Shown here: one piece after another, positions 4,408-42,794 of the stretch | Layout of the letters: every line of letters begins with the position of its first letter | Numbering within the stretch: position 1 is the first letter of the stretch | Assembly (NCBI RefSeq): GCF_009914755.1 | Contig: NC_060940.1 | Origin: the human T2T-CHM13v2.0 reference genome, Homo sapiens | DNA: 64,000 nucleotides | Reading direction: 5' to 3' (one strand) | Notes under the pieces: model-generated | Database searches by the model: none | Told to the model about the DNA's origin: nothing | What the model saw: only the letters and a program-made list of their open reading frames with translations | Position numbers and translations under genes: made by a program

Positions 4408-4798
4408 TGTATTAGTTTGTTTTCATACTCTTATAAAGAACTGCCTGAGACTGGGTAATTTATAAAGGAAAGAGGTTTAATTAATTCACAGTTCAGCATG
4501 TCTGGAGAGGCCTCAGGAAACTTACAATCATGGCAGAAGGCAAAGGGGAAGCAAGGCCTTTTCTTCACAAGACAGCAGGAAGGAGAAGTGCTGAGAAAAG
4601 GGGGAAGAGCCTCTTACAAAACCAACAAATCTCGTGAGAATTCACTCACTATCAAAAACGCATAGGGAACCCACTCCCATGATTCGGACACCTCCGCCTG
4701 GTCTCTCCCTTGACACATGGGGATTACGGGGATTACAAATTATACAAATGTACAATTCAAGATGAGATTTTGGGTGGGGATACAGCCAAACCATACCA
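4408..4798 (-). mobile_element. MaLR solo LTR (MST/THE1D-like) inserted in a MIR
   Basis: TG...CA ends, 5-bp TSD CCATT (4403-4407, 4799-4803). Confidence 0.92.
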
Positions 4799-5038
4799 CC
4801 ATTATCATTTCCATTTTACAGATGAAGAAACTGAGGCTCAAAACATTTCAGAAATGTTTTCAAGGTCACATAACCAGTAAATGGCATAACTGGAAGTTGG
4901 GTCCCAGAAGTCTGAGTCCATAGTTTGTGTCCTTAATCCTCATTGTACAGTTCTCTACCTACTGTACATGTTTATGTATCATTGAAGGTAAATGCTATTT
5001 ATGTGTGTATGTTCATGCATATGTGTGTGCACAATGGA

Positions 5039-5337
5039 TTTTTTTTTTTTTTTTGAGAGAGAGAGTCTTGCTCTTTCGCCCAGGCTGGAGTGCAGTGGGT
5101 GATCTTGGCTAACTGTAATCTCCGCCCCCCAGGTTCAAGTAATTCTCCTGCCTCAGCCTTCCGAGAAGCTGGGATTACAGGTGAGTACCACCACGACTGG
5201 CTAATTTTTTGTATTTTTAGTAGAGATGAGGTTTTACTATGTTGGCCAGCCTGGTCTCAAACTCCTGTCCTCAAGTGATACACCCATCTCGGCCTCCCAA
5301 AGAGTTGGGATTATAGGCATGAGCCACTGTGCCTAGC
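5039..5337 (-). mobile_element. AluS
   Basis: Poly-T start, Alu consensus. Confidence 0.93.
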
Positions 5338-5955
5338 CAAAATTGGTTATTTTTAAATTGTAAATAGTGTCTTATTGAATAGTTGTTTCTCATACAACTA
5401 TTCAATAAGATACTATTTACAATCAAGCTATTTTTTTCCTAACAAATTCAACCAGCAATGTGTCTTGGAGTTTTTTCCATATCGACAGATACAGACTTAT
5501 ATAGACAGATATAAACTTACTTCATTATTTTTAATGGCTGCTAGATACTTTATGGGATTCATGGCCTGCAAATATAACTGTGTTTTGGTTTTCTTTTTTG
5601 GGGTCATTCTCCTGTTGATGGACACATTTGTGTTTCTTTTCTCCTTTATTTTAAACTAAATTTTCCCTTTAAATTGTAAGTAAAAAAATGTACATTTCTT
5701 AGTACTTAGGACTTACATTTTGAGGAAGGAGATTGCCATGCACACATTAACCCTGCATCCTTGTGCATGGATTCCGCATTATTTCCTGCAGGCTGTGTAC
5801 CTGCTCTCATTTATATGCAAGTCAGATCCTGCACTAGAATGAACAACCTGAGGATACAGACCATGCCCCAGTTATTTCTGTGTCCCCTCCCCTAGTATTG
5901 TGCCTGGTATGTCGTAGGGGCTCAGTGAATGTTTGAATGAATCAGTGATTGAATG

Positions 5956-6464
5956 GTGTATTAGTTATTGCTGGTTAATAAATTTCCACAAGACTCAGTG
6001 GCTTAGAAGAATACACATTTATTATTTTACAGTTTCTGTGGCTCAGGGATTCAGGCAGAGCTCATCTGCGCAGGCTGCAGTTAAGGTGTTAGCTGGGGAT
6101 TCGGTCATCTCAAGGCTCTACTGGGGAAGGATTTGCTTTCCAACTCATGTGGTCATTGGCTGGATTTAGTTCCTTGTGGTTGTTGGAGTGAGGACCTCAG
6201 TTCCTCTTGTTTATTGCCACATGGGTCCTCCAACATGGCAGCTTGCGTTGTCAGAATGTGCAAGTAATAGAGTCTGCTAGCAAGACAGGAATCACATTCT
6301 TTTGTAACCCAGTGTGGAAACAGCATCCCATCACGTTGGTTGTGTTTTGTTGATTAAAAACAAGTCACAGGTCCCTTGCACACTCAAGAGGAGGGAGTTA
6401 TACTGGGACTTGAATACCAGGGAGCAGGGATCACTGGGTGCCCTCTTAGAATTCTGTCTACCAC
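5956..6464 (-). mobile_element. MLT1 (E/F-like) solo LTR
   Basis: TGTATTAG start, TCTGTCTACCACA end, MLT1 motifs. Confidence 0.8.
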
Positions 6465-6501
6465 AAAAGAATAATTTAAATAATAACATCAAAAAATAAT
6501 A

Positions 6502-6931
6502 CAGTTGACCCTTAAAGAACATGGGCTTGAACTGTGAAGATTCAAATATGCAGATTTTCTTCTGCTTCTGCTCCCCTAAGACAGCAAGACCAATCCCTCC
6601 TCTTCCTCCTCCTCAGTCTACTCAAGGTGAAGATGACAAGGATGAAGACCTTTAAGATGATCCACTTCTAGTTAATGAAGAGTAAATATATCTTCTTTTT
6701 CTTATGATTTTCTTAGAAACATTTTCTTTTCCCTAGCTTACTATATTGTAAGAATATGGTGTATAACACATATAACATACAAAATATGTGTTAATTGATT
6801 ATGTTATTGGGCTTCCAGTGGACAGTAGGCTATTAGTAGTTAAGTTTTAGGGGAGTCAAAAGTTATATGTGAATTTTCAACTGTGTTGGGGGTTGACATT
6901 CCTGACCCCTATGTTGTTCAAGAGCCAAATG
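6502..6931. mobile_element. Tigger2a/MER28-like DNA transposon
   Basis: Terminal inverted repeats CAGTTGACCCTT... / ...TGTTCAAGAGCCAAATG, TA on both sides, 430 bp. Confidence 0.85.
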
Positions 6932-10204: not shown

Positions 10205-11048
10205 GTGATAGCGTGGTTTTAAAAAATATGTCCACAAATTCTTTGATATTCTCCCCTTCAAGAAATGTAACTTAAGGTTGCTCTTTTTGAGTGTGAGTTG
10301 GACTTAGTGCTTAACTACTTCTCTTCCTCCTCCTCCTTCTTTCTTTTTAGAAATAGTCTGAAAAACATTTTATTTTTAAAATTTTTAAAAATGCATTTAC
10401 TTGTCTATTTTTAAATTGATAGAGAACACTGTATGTTTTAATCATGTATGAAATGATGTTTTGAAGTACATCTACACTGTGAAATGGTTCAGTCCAGCTA
10501 ATTAACAAATGCAATACTCACATAGCATTTTTACAGTAAGAGCACATAAAAACCACCCTTTACATTTTTCAAGAATACAATATGTCATCATTAACTATAG
10601 TCACCTTGCCTTATAATAGATCTCTTGAAATTTATTCCTTGGAGCCTGACTTCTAATGAATAACGTATGGCAGAGGTGATAGGGTTTCATTTCCAAGATT
10701 AGGTTATAAAAAGGCTCAGCTTCTGCCTTGGGTGCATACATTTCCTCTTTCCTGATTCACTCTCTTTATGAGCAGCCCTAATAGAGAGACCCACATGGTG
10801 AGGGATTGAAGCCTCCTGCCAACAGCCATGTAATTGAACTTGGAAGCAGATCCTCCAGCTCTTTTAGAAGCAGCTGCAACTCATGGCGATCTCATGAGAG
10901 AACTTCAACCAGAACCATGAACCTAAGCCTCTTCACGTTCCTGACCCTCTGAAACAATGAAATAATAAATGTTTGCTGATTAAAGTTTTAGGATAATTTT
11001 TGCTAAGGTTGGGGGCAATTGGTTATACAGCAATATATAACTAGAACA
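10205..11048 (+). mobile_element. MLT1 solo LTR split by an L1 3' fragment
   Basis: MLT1 similarity at 10205-10320 and 10645-11048, ending GCAATATATAACTAGAACA. Confidence 0.78.
10325..10640 (-). mobile_element. L1MA-type 3' end
   Basis: TAACTATAGTCACC..AATAGATCTCTTGAA L1M 3'UTR motif. Confidence 0.8.
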
Positions 11049-11310
11049 GTTGGGGAGAGGGTATTCCAATTGTGGATACCCAGTTCTGGGGACTGAGGTG
11101 TTATACCTCTTGGTCTGAAGGCAGAATGCTCAAGGTGGTGCCAGGAGAGGTCTGTGCAGAAGTGCATTGAGGAGTAACTGGAATAATGGTGAATGTTAAC
11201 TTGTTGTTGACTGCCATCCACATAATTGATTCCTTTACTTGCATGACACACTCACATATACGTTTCTAGATTTCAGATAACTTAAACAATTCATGAATAC
11301 ATAAAACATG

Positions 11311-11833
11311 AGTAGGGGAGAAGCTATTTCTTTTCTTACTCATTGCTAGGTTCATGGCTGAGGCCCCTATAAGAAGAGCCAGATTAACAAGAGAAAAGCA
11401 TGCAAGTTTATTTAATATAAGTTTTTCATTACATAGGAACCTTCAGAAATGAAGACCCAAAGAAACAGGGAAACCTATGTATTTTTATGCATAGGTTTGA
11501 TGGAGTGGACAATGATGCAGAAGTATGATTGGGCAAAAGTGGTATGATCTAATGGTAATAAACTGGGGGGAACTTAGCAAGGCCTGTTTGTTCAGATTAT
11601 TCACTGTATCCCTGTGTCATCAGAGATAAAGACATTCCTTTTTTCTGGGTATTGGGAGGGCACTTCTGGAATGAGGGTCTTATGACCTGCTTCAAGGGAG
11701 TGTCAGAGAATTCTTTTCCGGCCTAATTCAGGGGAGAAGGGTGAGGGGAAAGTGAGAGTGACCTTCCTGCTTCTGCTGTTTTCTCAAATGCCAAGGTGTT
11801 ATATCTTGGGGTAGCCTGTCTTGAACCTTATCA
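11311..11833 (-). mobile_element. ERV1 solo LTR (MER31-like)
   Basis: Minus strand starts TGATAAGGTTCAAGACAGGCTACCCCAA; flanking CATG on both sides. Confidence 0.7.
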
Positions 11834-12619
11834 CATGACTATAGTTTGCAACAGCTATTAAGGTACATTAGTACTATTAGTATTCAATAGAGGTTTAAGC
11901 ATAGTTGAGCTAGGTGAGGGTTACATCCCAATTTTAGTTGGAAGCCCTCTCCATTATCTTCCATTCATAAAGCCTAGAGGATGTTATCCATTTATTTACA
12001 AATATTTGTTGCATACCTACTGTATTCGTCCATTTTCACACTGCTGATAAAAACATACCTGAGACTGGGCAATTTACAAAAGAAAGAGGTTTTATGGACT
12101 TAGAGTTGTACCTGGCTGAGGAGGCCTTACAATCATGGTGGAAGGTGAAAGGCACTGCGTCACATGTGGAGACAAGAGAAGAGAGCTTGTGCAGGGAAAC
12201 TCCGCTTTTTTATACCATCAGATCTCATGAGGCTTAGTCACCATCATGAGAACAGCATGAAAAAGACCTGTCCCCCTGATTTAATTACCTCCCACTGGGT
12301 CCCTCCCACAGCATGTGGGAGTTCAAGATAAGATTTGGGTGGGGACACAGCCAAACCATATCATCCTGCTTCTGCTGCATTCTCAAATGCCAAGGTATTA
12401 TATTTTGGGGTAGCATGTCTTGAACCTCATCACATGACTATAGTTTGCAACAGCTATGAAGGTACATTAGTACTATTAGTATTCTATAGAGGCTGAAGCA
12501 CAGTTGAGCTATGCAAGGGTTACATCCCAATTTTAGTTGGACACCCACTCCCTTCTCTCCCATTTATAAAGCATAGATGATGTTATCCATTTATTTACAA
12601 ATATTTGTTGCATACCTAC
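11765..12619. repeat. 256-bp direct duplication (11765-12020, 12364-12619) flanking a THE1 LTR
   Basis: Ungapped manual alignment, 23 mismatches in 256. Confidence 0.95.
12021..12363 (-). mobile_element. THE1(B-like) solo LTR, no 5-bp TSD
   Basis: TGTATT...CCAAACCATATCA ends. Confidence 0.93.
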
Positions 12620-12774
12620 TATGAGCTATTTACTCTGGTAGGCCCTGGGGAGTCTATGGTAAATAAGACAGTGTCTGTGATCACAGAGAATATAGTCTAG
12701 TGAAAAAAAACTGCAGGCAGCAGGTAATTAAACAAACAAAAATAATAGTGTTTTGAAAATTATGATAGATGCAC

Positions 12775-13320
12775 TTATTAGAATGTTTTTTAGCTATAAT
12801 GGCAGAAAATCTTGATTAAAACTTGCTTAGGAATAAACTATTTAATCACACAGATATAGCAGTTCACATGGAGGGTAGGCTCTAAGCAAGAAATGGTCAG
12901 CAACTTGGTGATGTCAAGAGGACCCAGATTCTTTCCATCTCTCTGCTTTGTCCTCCTGGAGCTGGCCTCATCCTGGTTCTCCTTGTAGATAAAAAATGGC
13001 TCTCAGAAGCAACTGAGGCTCCACCGCTTCAGCATTCACTTCTAGCTGGAGAGAGGCTAAAATCTCCCTACTTTGCCCAGGCTATGTCTCTTCCCTTCAA
13101 TCTGATTGGCCAGTTTAGATCATGTGAGCTATCCTGAACCAATAACAGTTGCCAGGAGCATGCCTAATTCTGATGGGTTAAGACTAATTAGGACTCGCTA
13201 GAGCTAGGAACGGGTTACCATTGCCCTAAAACAGGTGGCAGATGTGAATGCCTAATAGCATCAGACTCAGGGAGGGAGGGATAAAAGGGAGGGTTTTGAA
13301 TTCTGGGTAGGCAGCCAGAT
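12775..13320. mobile_element. Old MLT1 (K/L-like) LTR within L2 fragments
   Basis: CTGATTGGCCAG..CCTGAACCAAT motif. Confidence 0.55.
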
Positions 13321-13990
13321 GTATCTTTTTATAATACGGGGAGAGTGGGGAGGTGTGGGAATATGTGGCTGGGAGTCTGGGAGGACTTCACTGGGGGAGT
13401 GATGTTGACATTGAGATCTGAAGGATGAAGAGATGGAGGCAGATGAAGGGACTAGTGTGTGTGTACCTGTGTGTGTGTTGTGTACATATTTTGAAGATTA
13501 TGGCGTCACAAGATGGAATGGGCCAGGAACCTTGGGCATTACTACAGTGCCAATATTGAATCTATCCCAATTTATAAGAAGAAATATGCAATTCATAAAA
13601 TTCTGCACCTAAACAGCACCAGTATTAATATATAATATTATACACAGCACCTTTTATCATTGATGGAATTTACAGCACCATTTCACCATGATCTCCTTGA
13701 CTTTACTATTTTAGGGTACAAGGACCTGACTTCCAACTGTTAACGTTTATTTATATATATATTTTAAAGCTGGACCCATTTTATCACCATTGTGGCAGCC
13801 TGAAATGCTAGAGAATGAACAGCTGCTCCCAACATCCTCCACCCAGCTGAAGGAACACAGACGTGGGGCACATAAACATTCAGTCCATAACAGGTATGAC
13901 TAGAACGTGTGGTTCATAGGGGCCACCATGGAATAGTCTATAGCCCTCTCATTTTGCAGTAGGGGAGGCAGAGGCCACGTGCTTCCCTAA

Positions 13991-14686
<696 letters not shown>

Positions 14687-41359: not shown

Positions 41360-41740
41360 TGTATTAGTTCATCCTTGCACTGCTGTGAAGAAATACCTGA
41401 GACTGGGTAATTTGTAAATAAAAGAGGTTTAATTGGTTCACAGTATAGGAAGCACAGTGGCTTCTGCTTCTGGGGAGGCCTCAGGAAACTTACAATCACA
41501 GCAGAAGATGAAGTGGAAGCAGGCATGTCTTACATGGCTGGAGGGAGCAGGAGGAAGAGAGAGAATGGGGAGGTGCCACATGCTCTTAAACAGATCTCAT
41601 ATTAACTCACTCACTCACTCCCATGAGAACAGCACCAAGGGGATGGTGCTAAACCATTCGTGAAAGTTCCAATCACCTCCCACCAGGCCCCACCTTCAAC
41701 ATTGAGGCTTACAACTGACCATGGTATCCAAACCATAGCA
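41360..41740 (-). mobile_element. MST solo LTR
   Basis: TG..CA ends, TSD ATAAT. Confidence 0.9.
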
Positions 41741-42424: not shown

Positions 42425-42794
42425 GGATAAGGTTTGGCTGTGTCCACACCCAAATCTCATCTTGAATTGTAGTTCCCATAATCCCCACGTATGTGGGAGG
42501 GACCGGGTGGGAGGTAATTGAATCATGGGGGCAGTTTCCCTCTTGCTGTTCTTGTGATAGTGAGTTCTCATGAGATCTGGTAGATTTATAAGGGGCTTTT
42601 CCCCCTTTTTGCTTGCACTTCTTTTTGCTGCCGCCATGTGAATAAGGACGTATTTACTTCCCCTTCCACCATGCTTGTAAGTTGCCTGAGGTATCCCCAG
42701 CCATGCTGAACTGTGAGTCAATTAAACCTCTTTCCTTTATAAATTACCCACTGTTGGGTATTTCTCCATAGCATCATGAGAATGGGCTAATACA
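42425..42794 (+). mobile_element. THE1 solo LTR within L1ME (~41800-42960)
   Basis: GGTTTGGCTGTGTCC..CTAATACA. Confidence 0.9.

What the first reader, a model, noticed from the sequence alone, without database searches (positions are those of the whole stretch)
11765..12619. Solo THE1 LTR with a 256-bp 'target-site duplication'
Seen: 11765-12020 and 12364-12619 align without gaps (23 mismatches in 256, ~91% identity). The THE1 LTR (12021-12363) sits exactly between them, with intact TG/CA ends abutting the breakpoints and no 5-bp TSD (CCTAC vs TCCTG). Other MaLR LTRs here (4408, 20970, 22218, 41360, 52892) have exact 5-bp TSDs. Established: retroviral integrase normally makes 4-6 bp staggered cuts, and aberrant one-ended integration can give large host duplications. 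Inference: this is a germline fossil of uncoupled integration. An alternative is unequal recombination between two LTR alleles 256 bp apart. The event also copied the end of the MER31-like LTR and of an L2.
Basis: partly seen in the sequence, partly recalled or inferred. Interest (0 to 1): 0.75.

Follow-up and report, generated by a model that had tools for sequence, protein, structure and literature searches.

The report
THE1 solo LTR, 256-bp flank duplication
An ancient retrovirus-like LTR in a human chr16 intron lies exactly between two copies of a 256-base stretch of host DNA, most likely the scar of a faulty integration, a kind of scar already described for younger human endogenous retroviruses.

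Summary
Window 11765-12020 and 12364-12619 align without gaps, with 23 mismatches in 256 (BLAST E 1e-99). A complete 343-bp LTR (12021-12363, minus strand) fills the gap between them exactly. Its TG and CA ends coincide with those of its 29 best genomic relatives. It has no 5-bp TSD (1 of 5 match).

Family: ERVL-MaLR, THE1. It is a short variant (342-345 bp) that sits between a published THE1B copy (CRH) and a THE1A-type copy (SQOR).

Age: the flank copies differ by 0.048 substitutions per site per copy. That matches typical THE1 terminal branches (0.045-0.066) and does not differ significantly from the LTR's own private changes (21 of 343; p = 0.36). The duplication is therefore as old as the insertion class, which print puts at more than 40 My.

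Best reading: an aberrant integration whose two ends joined the host DNA 256 bp apart, later reduced to a solo LTR.

This is not new in kind. HERV-K(HML-2) loci with 13-450-bp TSDs are in print, including a validated 250-bp case (PMC5488345, PMC4422153). I found no THE1/MaLR report. The decisive outgroup comparison could not be run with these tools.

The parts
11765..12020 (.). Left copy of the duplicated host stretch (256 nt). It abuts the U5-side end of the LTR.
   Evidence: gapless, 233 of 256 identical to 12364-12619.
12021..12363 (-). Complete solo LTR of the ERVL-MaLR THE1 group (343 nt, TG...CA). The element lies on the minus strand: its 5' (U3) end is at 12363 and its 3' (U5) end at 12021.
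   Evidence: 40 scored genome matches at 85-88% identity over the full length; the ends coincide with those of 29 relatives, and 12 of those abut PBS-like or PPT-like internal sequence, which fixes the orientation; aligned to the named THE1B (CRH) copy and the THE1A-type (SQOR) copy.
12364..12619 (.). Right copy of the duplicated host stretch (256 nt). It abuts the U3-side end of the LTR.
11312..11842 (.). Older interspersed repeat (about 520 nt, name not verified). Its last 62-78 nt lie inside the left copy. The bounds are approximate.
   Evidence: BLAST of window 10801-12020 against 8 genome copies (L033-L040). Homology runs from 11312-11446 to 11824-11842; 37 further genome matches to only the first 51-74 nt of the 256-nt stretch.
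12364..12441 (.). Copy of only the tail of that older repeat, beginning abruptly at the LTR junction. This shows that the right copy is a local partial duplicate and not an independent repeat insertion. The right bound is an upper estimate.
   Evidence: together with the gapless register.
12020..12021 (.). Left junction. One base (T) could belong either to the host or to the LTR.
   Evidence: the T at 12021 equals the T at 12620.
12363..12364 (.). Right junction. There is no shared base between the LTR end and the host sequence upstream of the left copy.
   Evidence: position -1 is T in one and A in the other.

Best explanation
A THE1 (ERVL-MaLR) element entered the germline of an early anthropoid primate by an aberrant integration. 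Its two DNA ends were joined to opposite strands of the target 256 bp apart, with the same polarity as a normal 5-bp stagger. Filling in the long single-stranded gaps duplicated the 256 bp on either side of the element.

Two routes lead to this structure. In one, integrase joins both ends in uncoupled half-reactions. In the other, integrase joins one end, and the other 3' end primes on nearby host DNA and is resolved by host repair. The second route is the model of PMC5041404.

Later the element was reduced to a solo LTR by recombination between its LTRs. Since then the two host copies and the LTR have decayed neutrally inside an intron of lncRNA LOC105371117.

Shown: the structure, the intact ends, the lack of a 5-bp TSD, the local origin of the duplicate, and the matching ages. 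Inferred: the integration mechanism, which end was aberrant, and the provirus-to-solo-LTR step.
For: 1. Exact abutment. The 256-nt copies end and begin at the first and last LTR base, and there is no 5-nt TSD.

2. Canonical ends. The LTR ends are the canonical TG and CA of the family, at the same positions as in 29 relatives. This is what integrase-processed ends look like.

3. Normal TSDs elsewhere. Of the 29 closest copies, 9 have 5 of 5 and 4 have 4 of 5 flank matches, 12 abut internal sequence and 4 are unclear. This locus is therefore an exception. A long abutting flank repeat is seen in 0 of 29 closest copies and 1 of 58 further THE1 copies.

4. Local origin. The right copy carries only the tail of an older repeat and starts at the junction. 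The genome has no other copy of the stretch.

5. Matching age. The flank copies have diverged by 0.048 per copy (95% range 0.030-0.074). THE1 terminal branches are 0.045-0.055 (NJ) or 0.063-0.066 (star fit). The LTR has 21 private columns in 343. A test for an equal per-lineage rate gives p = 0.36.

6. Precedent in print. Aberrant proviruses carry host duplications 'hundreds or thousands of bp long', and the aberrant end is 'often, but not always, truncated' (PMC5041404; Discussion and passages read). For HML-2, 8 of 622 LTR5_Hs sites have flank repeats longer than 10 bp (13-450 bp), and the 250-bp one at a solo LTR was validated by an empty allele (PMC5488345; abstract and sections 11 and 13 read; also PMC4422153 passages).

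7. A second THE1 case. L102 has an 18-nt flank duplication plus 4 nt of junction homology.
Against: - No outgroup or empty site could be examined, so it is not shown that the duplication arose together with the insertion.
- The structure is identical to that expected from recombination between two insertion alleles.
- The LTR's fitted branch is about twice the per-copy divergence of the flanks: 0.089 over all sites and 0.080 over non-CpG columns, or 0.095-0.101 in larger alignments. That would fit a duplication younger than the LTR. However, this branch includes pre-insertion differences and alignment noise around a private indel pair, and the count of private columns does not differ significantly.
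- In cell culture, wild-type integrase gave 0 of 99 and 0 of 85 aberrant events (PMC5041404). The event is therefore rare unless the integrase or its substrate is impaired.
- Junction microhomology, which the one-ended model expects in most cases, is only 1 nt at one junction and 0 nt at the other.
Confidence: 0.7

Rival explanations
1. Two independent THE1 insertions in the same orientation, 251 bp apart, segregated as alleles. An unequal crossover within the LTR or provirus in a heterozygote joined the left side of the downstream insertion to the right side of the upstream one. The product is stretch-LTR-stretch, where the duplicated unit is the spacing plus one 5-bp TSD.
For: It predicts exactly the observed structure, including intact TG/CA ends and the absence of a matched 5-bp TSD. 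THE1 elements are numerous: the first-look searches found 5,020-6,721 candidates, and PMC6166974 implies roughly 23,000 THE1B copies (passage). Unequal recombination among THE1 LTRs does occur, since L013 looks like the middle LTR of a tandem array.
Against: It needs two insertions within about 250 bp, in the same orientation, polymorphic at the same time and in trans, then a crossover in a short offset homology, then fixation. This is my own estimate and was not computed by any tool. Even counting about 40,000 family members over the whole activity period, the chance of a same-orientation neighbour within 251 bp is about 0.3%, and co-segregating ones are far fewer.

There is no sign of a mosaic LTR. 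All three thirds of the LTR are closest to the same subgroup, and the private differences are spread evenly, 2, 4, 3, 4, 5, 2, 1 per 49 nt. This test has little power for two sister copies.

The HML-2 7p21.2 precedent of the same size had an empty site with one copy of the stretch (PMC5488345).
Confidence: 0.1
2. 'Pseudo-TSD': a tandem duplication of the 256-bp stretch existed first, and the LTR later landed between the two copies.
For: PMC5488345 raises this model for putative long TSDs whose empty site is unknown (Discussion read). The confidence ranges of the flank divergence and the LTR divergence overlap, so an earlier duplication is not excluded by dating.
Against: The LTR would have to hit the exact junction base of the tandem copies and also leave no 5-bp TSD. 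The copies are in gapless register right up to both LTR ends. The flank copies are no more diverged than the LTR, 0.048 per copy against 21 of 343 private columns.
Confidence: 0.05
3. A normal insertion with a 5-bp TSD came first. A later replication-based rearrangement with two template switches copied the upstream 251 bp to the other side of the LTR. The second switch would have used the 5-bp TSD as microhomology.
For: The fitted LTR branch (0.08-0.10) exceeds the per-copy flank divergence (0.048), as it would if the duplication were younger. The last 5 nt of both copies equal what a normal TSD at the left junction would have been.
Against: It needs two switches that both land exactly on LTR boundaries. 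No microhomology exists at the right junction. The age difference is not significant when private columns are counted (p = 0.36).
Confidence: 0.05
4. LINE-1-mediated insertion of an LTR-containing RNA. L1 events can leave long TSDs.
For: None beyond the long duplication.
Against: The insert is a complete LTR from TG to CA, with U3, R and U5 in DNA order. No single transcript has that order. There is no poly(A) tail and no 5' truncation.
Confidence: 0.01

Closest known systems
HERV-K(HML-2) solo LTR at 7p21.2 with a 250-bp TSD, and the other long-TSD HML-2 loci (PMC5488345, PMC4422153)
   Same: A solo LTR with intact ends lies directly between two copies of about 250 bp of host DNA in place of the normal short TSD. 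The authors ascribe this to inefficient or aberrant integration. The frequency is of the same order: 8 of 622 LTR5_Hs sites there, against 1 of 87 unselected THE1 copies here.
   Different: The retroviral class differs: a class II betaretrovirus-like element with a 6-bp TSD there, against class III ERVL-MaLR with a 5-bp TSD here. The age differs: those copies are human-specific and nearly identical (99.6%), these are 91% identical and date from the THE1 period. The 7p21.2 case has a sequenced empty allele. This one does not, and probably cannot within humans.
Aberrant (one-ended) integrations of HIV-1 and ASLV vectors in cell culture (PMC5041404 and the work it cites)
   Same: Host duplications of hundreds of bp lie next to the provirus. 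One junction is normal. The polarity is such that repair on one side gives a duplication and on the other a deletion.
   Different: There the aberrant end is usually truncated or shows short homology. Here both ends are complete and overlap is 0 and 1 nt. Those are somatic events with impaired integrase, drug or mutated ends. This is a fixed germline event from an element that, by recall and not tested here, carries no integrase of its own.
Ordinary THE1 solo LTR
   Same: Length, termini, sequence and copy-number context are the same.
   Different: It lacks the 5-bp TSD that 13 of the 17 solo-like closest copies show at 4 or more of 5 positions.
Proviruses or solo LTRs with unmatched TSDs made by recombination between different proviruses (Hughes and Coffin; recalled, not read here)
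   Same: The matching short TSD is absent.
   Different: In those cases the two flanks come from different loci and the intervening DNA is lost or rearranged. Here the flanks are copies of one another.

Membership tests
ERVL-MaLR, THE1 LTR | Full-length sequence similarity to copies that print names as THE1 | tested here: met
   About 76% identity over the whole length to the 366-bp THE1B upstream of CRH (PMC6166974). 74% identity to the LTR that carries the RefSeq SQOR start, which is THE1A by the indels listed in PMC10735291. 85-88% identity to 39 other genome copies.
ERVL-MaLR, THE1 LTR | TG...CA termini and a length of about 340-370 nt | tested here: met
   343 nt, with TG at 12021-12022 and CA at 12362-12363. 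The ends are in register with 29 relatives.
ERVL-MaLR, THE1 LTR | Relatives occur as LTR pairs around an internal region with a PBS and PPT next to the LTRs | tested here: met
   12 of the 29 closest copies abut a shared PBS-like or purine-rich flank. Two of the matches lie 1.9 kb apart on chr1.
ERVL-MaLR, THE1 LTR | 5-bp target-site duplication | tested here: not met
   CCTAC against TCCTG, 1 of 5. A 256-nt duplication stands in its place. This bears on the mode of insertion and not on the identity of the LTR.
THE1B (subfamily) | Structure as in the named CRH copy: about 364-366 nt, with the 15-nt and 10-nt blocks present | tested here: not met
   Ours and all 29 of its closest copies lack the 15-nt block (30 of 30 rows, against 0 of 30 rows of the THE1B group). 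29 of 30 lack the second block. The net distance to the THE1B group is small (0.057), so a repeat library might still label it THE1B. That was not testable here.
THE1A (subfamily) | The four indels of PMC10735291 relative to THE1B: 186ins, 204del, 226_235del and 303_312delinsTT | tested here: not met
   A 10-nt deletion at the place of 226_235del is shared, but the 303-312 stretch is kept. The net distance to the THE1A-type group is 0.135. In the NJ tree rooted on the IL2RB-promoter LTR the group is sister to the THE1A-type group. Coordinates in the paper refer to a consensus that I did not see.
Long-TSD retroviral insertion (as HML-2 7p21.2) | Direct repeats much longer than the normal TSD that abut both LTR ends with no normal TSD | tested here: met
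Long-TSD retroviral insertion (as HML-2 7p21.2) | An empty (pre-integration) site with exactly one copy of the stretch | not testable with these tools
The human reference holds only this locus.
One-ended aberrant integration (Hughes laboratory model) | One normal junction, and one junction with truncation, added bases or short homology | tested here: inconclusive
   Both ends are complete. There is a 1-nt overlap at the U5-side junction and none at the U3 side. Chance gives at least 1 nt at one of two junctions 44% of the time.

The most novel reading that the evidence does not exclude
Long target-site duplications are a regular class for THE1/MaLR elements, at the level of about one per hundred insertions, and this locus is not a one-off. 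MaLRs are non-autonomous elements that had to borrow an integrase. If so, the two cases seen here would be the first fossils showing that uncoupled or one-ended integration operated in the primate germline more than 40 My ago. The cases are 256 nt at this locus and 18 nt with 4 nt of junction homology at L102. The human genome would then hold hundreds of such scars, each a small segmental duplication seeded by an LTR element, and their junctions could be read to infer how the ancient integration machinery failed.
Probability: 0.4. Interest if true: 0.45.

Novelty: new member of a known kind. Interest (0 to 1): 0.3.

Why it matters
It extends a documented oddity of retroviral integration to a much older, class III, non-autonomous family. 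[quoted passage not shown] It also shows that such scars remain legible after roughly 40 My.

In practice it warns annotators that a missing short TSD at a solo LTR does not always mean inter-element recombination. It also shows that LTR insertion can seed small tandem duplications of host DNA.

It has no visible functional consequence. The locus is intronic in an uncharacterised lncRNA and overlaps no annotated exon or regulatory feature (finding's gene table).

Tried and rejected
**Dating by a star-tree fit.** The fitted branch of the LTR rose from 0.089 to 0.095 to 0.101 as more sequences were added to the alignment. It mixes pre-insertion differences with later decay. I therefore relied on counts of private columns and on comparison with the terminal branches of other copies. 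The comparison copies were chosen by the search tool as the best matches, so their branches are biased short.

**Subfamily naming.** No repeat library was available. I used three copies tied to print:
- the CRH THE1B copy (PMC6166974);
- the LTR that carries the RefSeq SQOR start. PMC10735291 says THE1A starts SQOR transcripts, and the copy shows that paper's indels;
- the LTR at the RefSeq IL2RB 5' end. PMC13313205 says a THE1D LTR is the placental IL2RB promoter. That this LTR is the one meant is my inference.

The 10-kb stretches around the IL23R and THOC5 gene starts held no THE1 match (0 of 2). The result is 'THE1, between THE1B and THE1A', not a library name.

**Chimerism tests.** Both were negative, but they are weak against recombination between sister copies.

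**Gene conversion between the flank copies.** 16 of the 23 differences fall within 94 nt (p about 0.015 for that window, chosen after looking). A 50-nt window gives p = 0.33, and the longest clean run gives p = 0.33. I treat this as not established.

**RefSeq repeat mask.** It has no row over window 10424-14085, so it gave no help with boundaries.

**Literature.** Eight searches were run. None of the listed titles or abstracts reports a long TSD for THE1 or MaLR. The 11 papers holding 'THE1', 'MaLR' and 'target site duplication' were seen as a listing only, except PMC10735291. Supplementary tables were closed, so the structures of individual aberrant proviruses in PMC5041404 and the full TSD list of PMC5488345 were not seen. 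They may hold junction details that bear on which model fits.

Full report
**1. The observation**

Window 11765-12020 and 12364-12619 are direct copies in gapless register. They differ at 23 of 256 positions: 11 transitions and 12 transversions, none in a CpG context, K2P distance 0.096. BLAST of the 500 nt left of the LTR against the 500 nt right of it gives a single hit. It is 256 nt long with E 1.2e-99, it ends on the last base before the LTR and starts on the first base after it. The repeat can be read one base longer, because T 12021 equals T 12620. Beyond that the sequences are unrelated. This is far beyond chance.

**2. The insert**

Window 12021-12363 (343 nt) matches 39 other places in the reference over its full length at 85-88% identity (40 scored matches including the locus itself). 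The first look found 5,651 candidates, of which only 40 were scored.

In the 29 best copies that were saved (L002-L030), homology starts and stops at the same bases as here, with TG and CA at the ends. Twelve of the 29 abut a shared flank. For five it is a PBS-like flank on the window-left side, and for eight a purine-rich, PPT-like flank on the window-right side. One copy, L013, has both. The element therefore lies on the minus strand of the window, with its U3 end at 12363 and its U5 end at 12021. Our copy is a complete LTR.

**3. Target-site duplications**

The five bases on either side of our LTR are CCTAC and TCCTG, a match at 1 of 5. Among the 29 closest copies:
- 9 have a 5 of 5 match;
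- 4 have a 4 of 5 match;
- 12 are parts of longer elements;
- 4 are unclear.

A cruder scan of 58 copies of two other THE1 groups found 15 with 5 of 5 and 14 with 4 of 5.

A normal 5-bp TSD is therefore the rule for this family, and this locus is an exception.

A long flank repeat that abuts both ends occurs in 0 of the 29 closest copies and in 1 of 58 further copies. That one, L102, has an 18-nt duplication. In addition, 4 nt are shared between the LTR end and the host sequence just upstream of the duplicated stretch.

**4. The duplicated stretch is local host DNA**

A genome search with the left copy finds only the two copies at this locus in full. It also finds 37 matches confined to the first 51-74 nt.

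These short matches belong to an interspersed repeat of about 520 nt that runs from about window 11312 to 11824-11842 (8 of 8 copies examined match). The left copy contains the tail of that repeat in continuity with its body. The right copy starts in the middle of it, directly at the LTR junction.

The right copy is therefore a partial local duplicate. I could not verify the names MER31 or L2.

**5. Family**

I tied the name to print through three published copies.

- *CRH THE1B.* PMC6166974 (passages) describes a 366-bp THE1B within 2 kb of the CRH promoter. The reference has a 366-nt LTR there (L041:4297-4662), and our LTR aligns to it over its whole length at about 76%.
- *SQOR THE1A.* PMC10735291 (Results read) states that THE1 members are simian-specific and that the order is THE1D, C, B, A, with activity until about 45 My ago. 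It lists four indels that separate THE1A from THE1B, and says that THE1A starts SQOR transcripts. The RefSeq SQOR start lies inside a 352-nt LTR (L073:4808-5159) that shows those indels.
- *IL2RB THE1D.* The RefSeq IL2RB 5' end lies inside a THE1-like LTR of about 379 nt. PMC13313205 (passages) says a THE1D LTR is the placental IL2RB promoter.

With 30 copies around each of the first two and the IL2RB copy as outgroup, the results are as follows.
- Our LTR and all 29 of its closest copies (342-345 nt for most) lack a 15-nt block that all 30 THE1B-group rows keep. They also lack a 10-nt block at the place of the THE1A deletion, but they keep the 303-312 stretch that THE1A lost.
- Mean pairwise K2P within groups is 0.133 (THE1B group), 0.126 (ours) and 0.110 (THE1A-type).
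- Net distances are 0.057 to THE1B and 0.135 to THE1A-type.
- The NJ tree is ((ours, THE1A-type), THE1B).

I call it a THE1 LTR of a short variant between THE1B and THE1A. What a repeat library would label it was not testable.

**6. Age**

The flank copies give 0.048 substitutions per site per copy (95% range 0.030-0.074). Terminal branches of other THE1 copies, measured in the same way, are 0.045-0.055 on the NJ tree and 0.063-0.066 by star fit. Over non-CpG columns the star fit gives 0.051.

Our LTR has 21 columns in which at most 10% of the 29 others share its base. The others have 8-18, with a median of 13. The 21 columns are spread 2, 4, 3, 4, 5, 2, 1 along the LTR. A test for an equal per-lineage rate between the LTR (21 of 343) and the flanks (23 of 512 site-lineages) gives p = 0.36.

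The duplication is thus as old as a typical THE1 insertion. By PMC10735291 that means after the tarsier split and more than 40 My ago.

One point counts against this. The fitted branch of our LTR (0.08-0.10) is about twice the flank value and is the longest of its group. It includes pre-insertion differences, and it grew with alignment size, so I give it less weight. It does leave room for a duplication somewhat younger than the LTR.

**7. Mechanism**

The polarity is that of a TSD: the same host bases lie left and right of the element. Both ends are complete and canonical. The simplest account is that the two viral 3' ends were joined to opposite host strands 256 bp apart instead of 5 bp apart, and that gap repair then copied the interval.

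PMC5041404 (Discussion read) shows that this happens. When integrase inserts only one end, the other 3' end primes on nearby host DNA, usually at a short homology, and recombination completes the insertion. This gives deletions on one side or duplications 'hundreds or thousands of bp long' on the other. The aberrant end is 'often, but not always' truncated. With wild-type integrase the rate was 0 of 99 and 0 of 85. With impaired integrase it was 3-25%.

At our locus the overlap is 1 nt at the U5-side junction and 0 nt at the U3 side, which chance explains (44%). The sequence therefore does not tell whether one or both ends were joined by integrase. The later collapse of a full element to a solo LTR is inferred from general knowledge and is not shown.

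**8. Rivals**

- *Two insertion alleles.* Recombination between two insertion alleles 251 bp apart yields exactly the same product. It can only be separated from aberrant integration by outgroups, and I rate it lower because of the coincidences it needs. The mosaic tests were negative but weak.
- *Pre-existing tandem duplication.* This is the 'pseudo-TSD' model of PMC5488345. It needs an insertion on the exact junction base with no TSD.
- *Later two-switch replication error.* It needs both switches to fall on LTR boundaries.
- *L1-mediated insertion.* It is excluded because the insert is a whole LTR in DNA order without a poly(A) tail.
- *Assembly error.* It is excluded by the 9% divergence between the copies.

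**9. What is known**

The phenomenon is in print for HERV-K(HML-2).
- PMC4422153 (passages) lists solo LTRs with 250-bp and 61-bp duplications, a provirus with 450 bp, and a chimpanzee provirus with 15-18 bp. It ascribes them to inefficient integration.
- PMC5488345 (abstract and sections 11 and 13) validates the 250-bp case with an empty allele. It also tabulates 8 loci with flank repeats longer than 10 bp among 622 LTR5_Hs sites.

My searches listed no report for THE1 or MaLR. This locus is therefore a new, much older member of a known kind, in a different retroviral class. With L102 it hints at a rate near 1 in 87 unselected THE1 copies. That is similar to the HML-2 figure, but it rests on one case.

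**10. Verdict**

The feature is real, and the reading as a fossil of aberrant integration is the most likely one (0.7). It has modest interest (0.3). It has no apparent function: it lies in the last intron of lncRNA LOC105371117 and overlaps no annotated regulatory feature. The decisive evidence is the orthologous locus in other primates, which these tools could not reach.

Noticed in passing
L102 = G000:C7:140324627-140324978 (chr7), flanks included: A THE1A-type LTR is flanked by an 18-nt host duplication that abuts both ends. In addition, 4 nt are shared between the LTR end and the host sequence just upstream of the duplicated stretch. This is a second, shorter long-TSD case, with the junction homology that the one-ended model expects.
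   Followed up: partly
L013 = G000:C5:88313542-88313884 (chr5): This LTR has a PBS-like flank on one side and a PPT-like flank on the other. It looks like the middle LTR of a tandem LTR-internal-LTR-internal-LTR array made by unequal recombination.
   Followed up: no
window 10424-14085: The RefSeq masked_repeat table has no row here, although a full THE1 LTR (12021-12363) and an older interspersed repeat of about 520 nt (about 11312-11842) lie in this span. The mask is evidently not a library-based repeat annotation.
   Followed up: no
window 11765-12020 against 12364-12619: The differences between the two copies are 11 transitions to 12 transversions, fewer transitions than is usual for neutral decay, and none are at CpG. 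16 of the 23 differences lie within 94 nt (post hoc p about 0.015), while a 50-nt window and the longest clean run give p = 0.33. This is possibly partial conversion near the ends, but that is not established.
   Followed up: partly
window 41360-41740 and 42426-42794: Two MaLR LTRs in opposite orientations lie about 700 nt apart. The first (381 nt) has an exact ATAAT TSD. The relation between the two was not examined.
   Followed up: no
L073:4808-5159 (chr15, SQOR) and L075:about 4758-5136 (chr22, IL2RB): The RefSeq 5' ends of SQOR and IL2RB fall inside THE1-type LTRs in the sense orientation, at about LTR position 194 for SQOR. This agrees with the printed statements that THE1A and THE1D LTRs act as promoters there.
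   Followed up: partly
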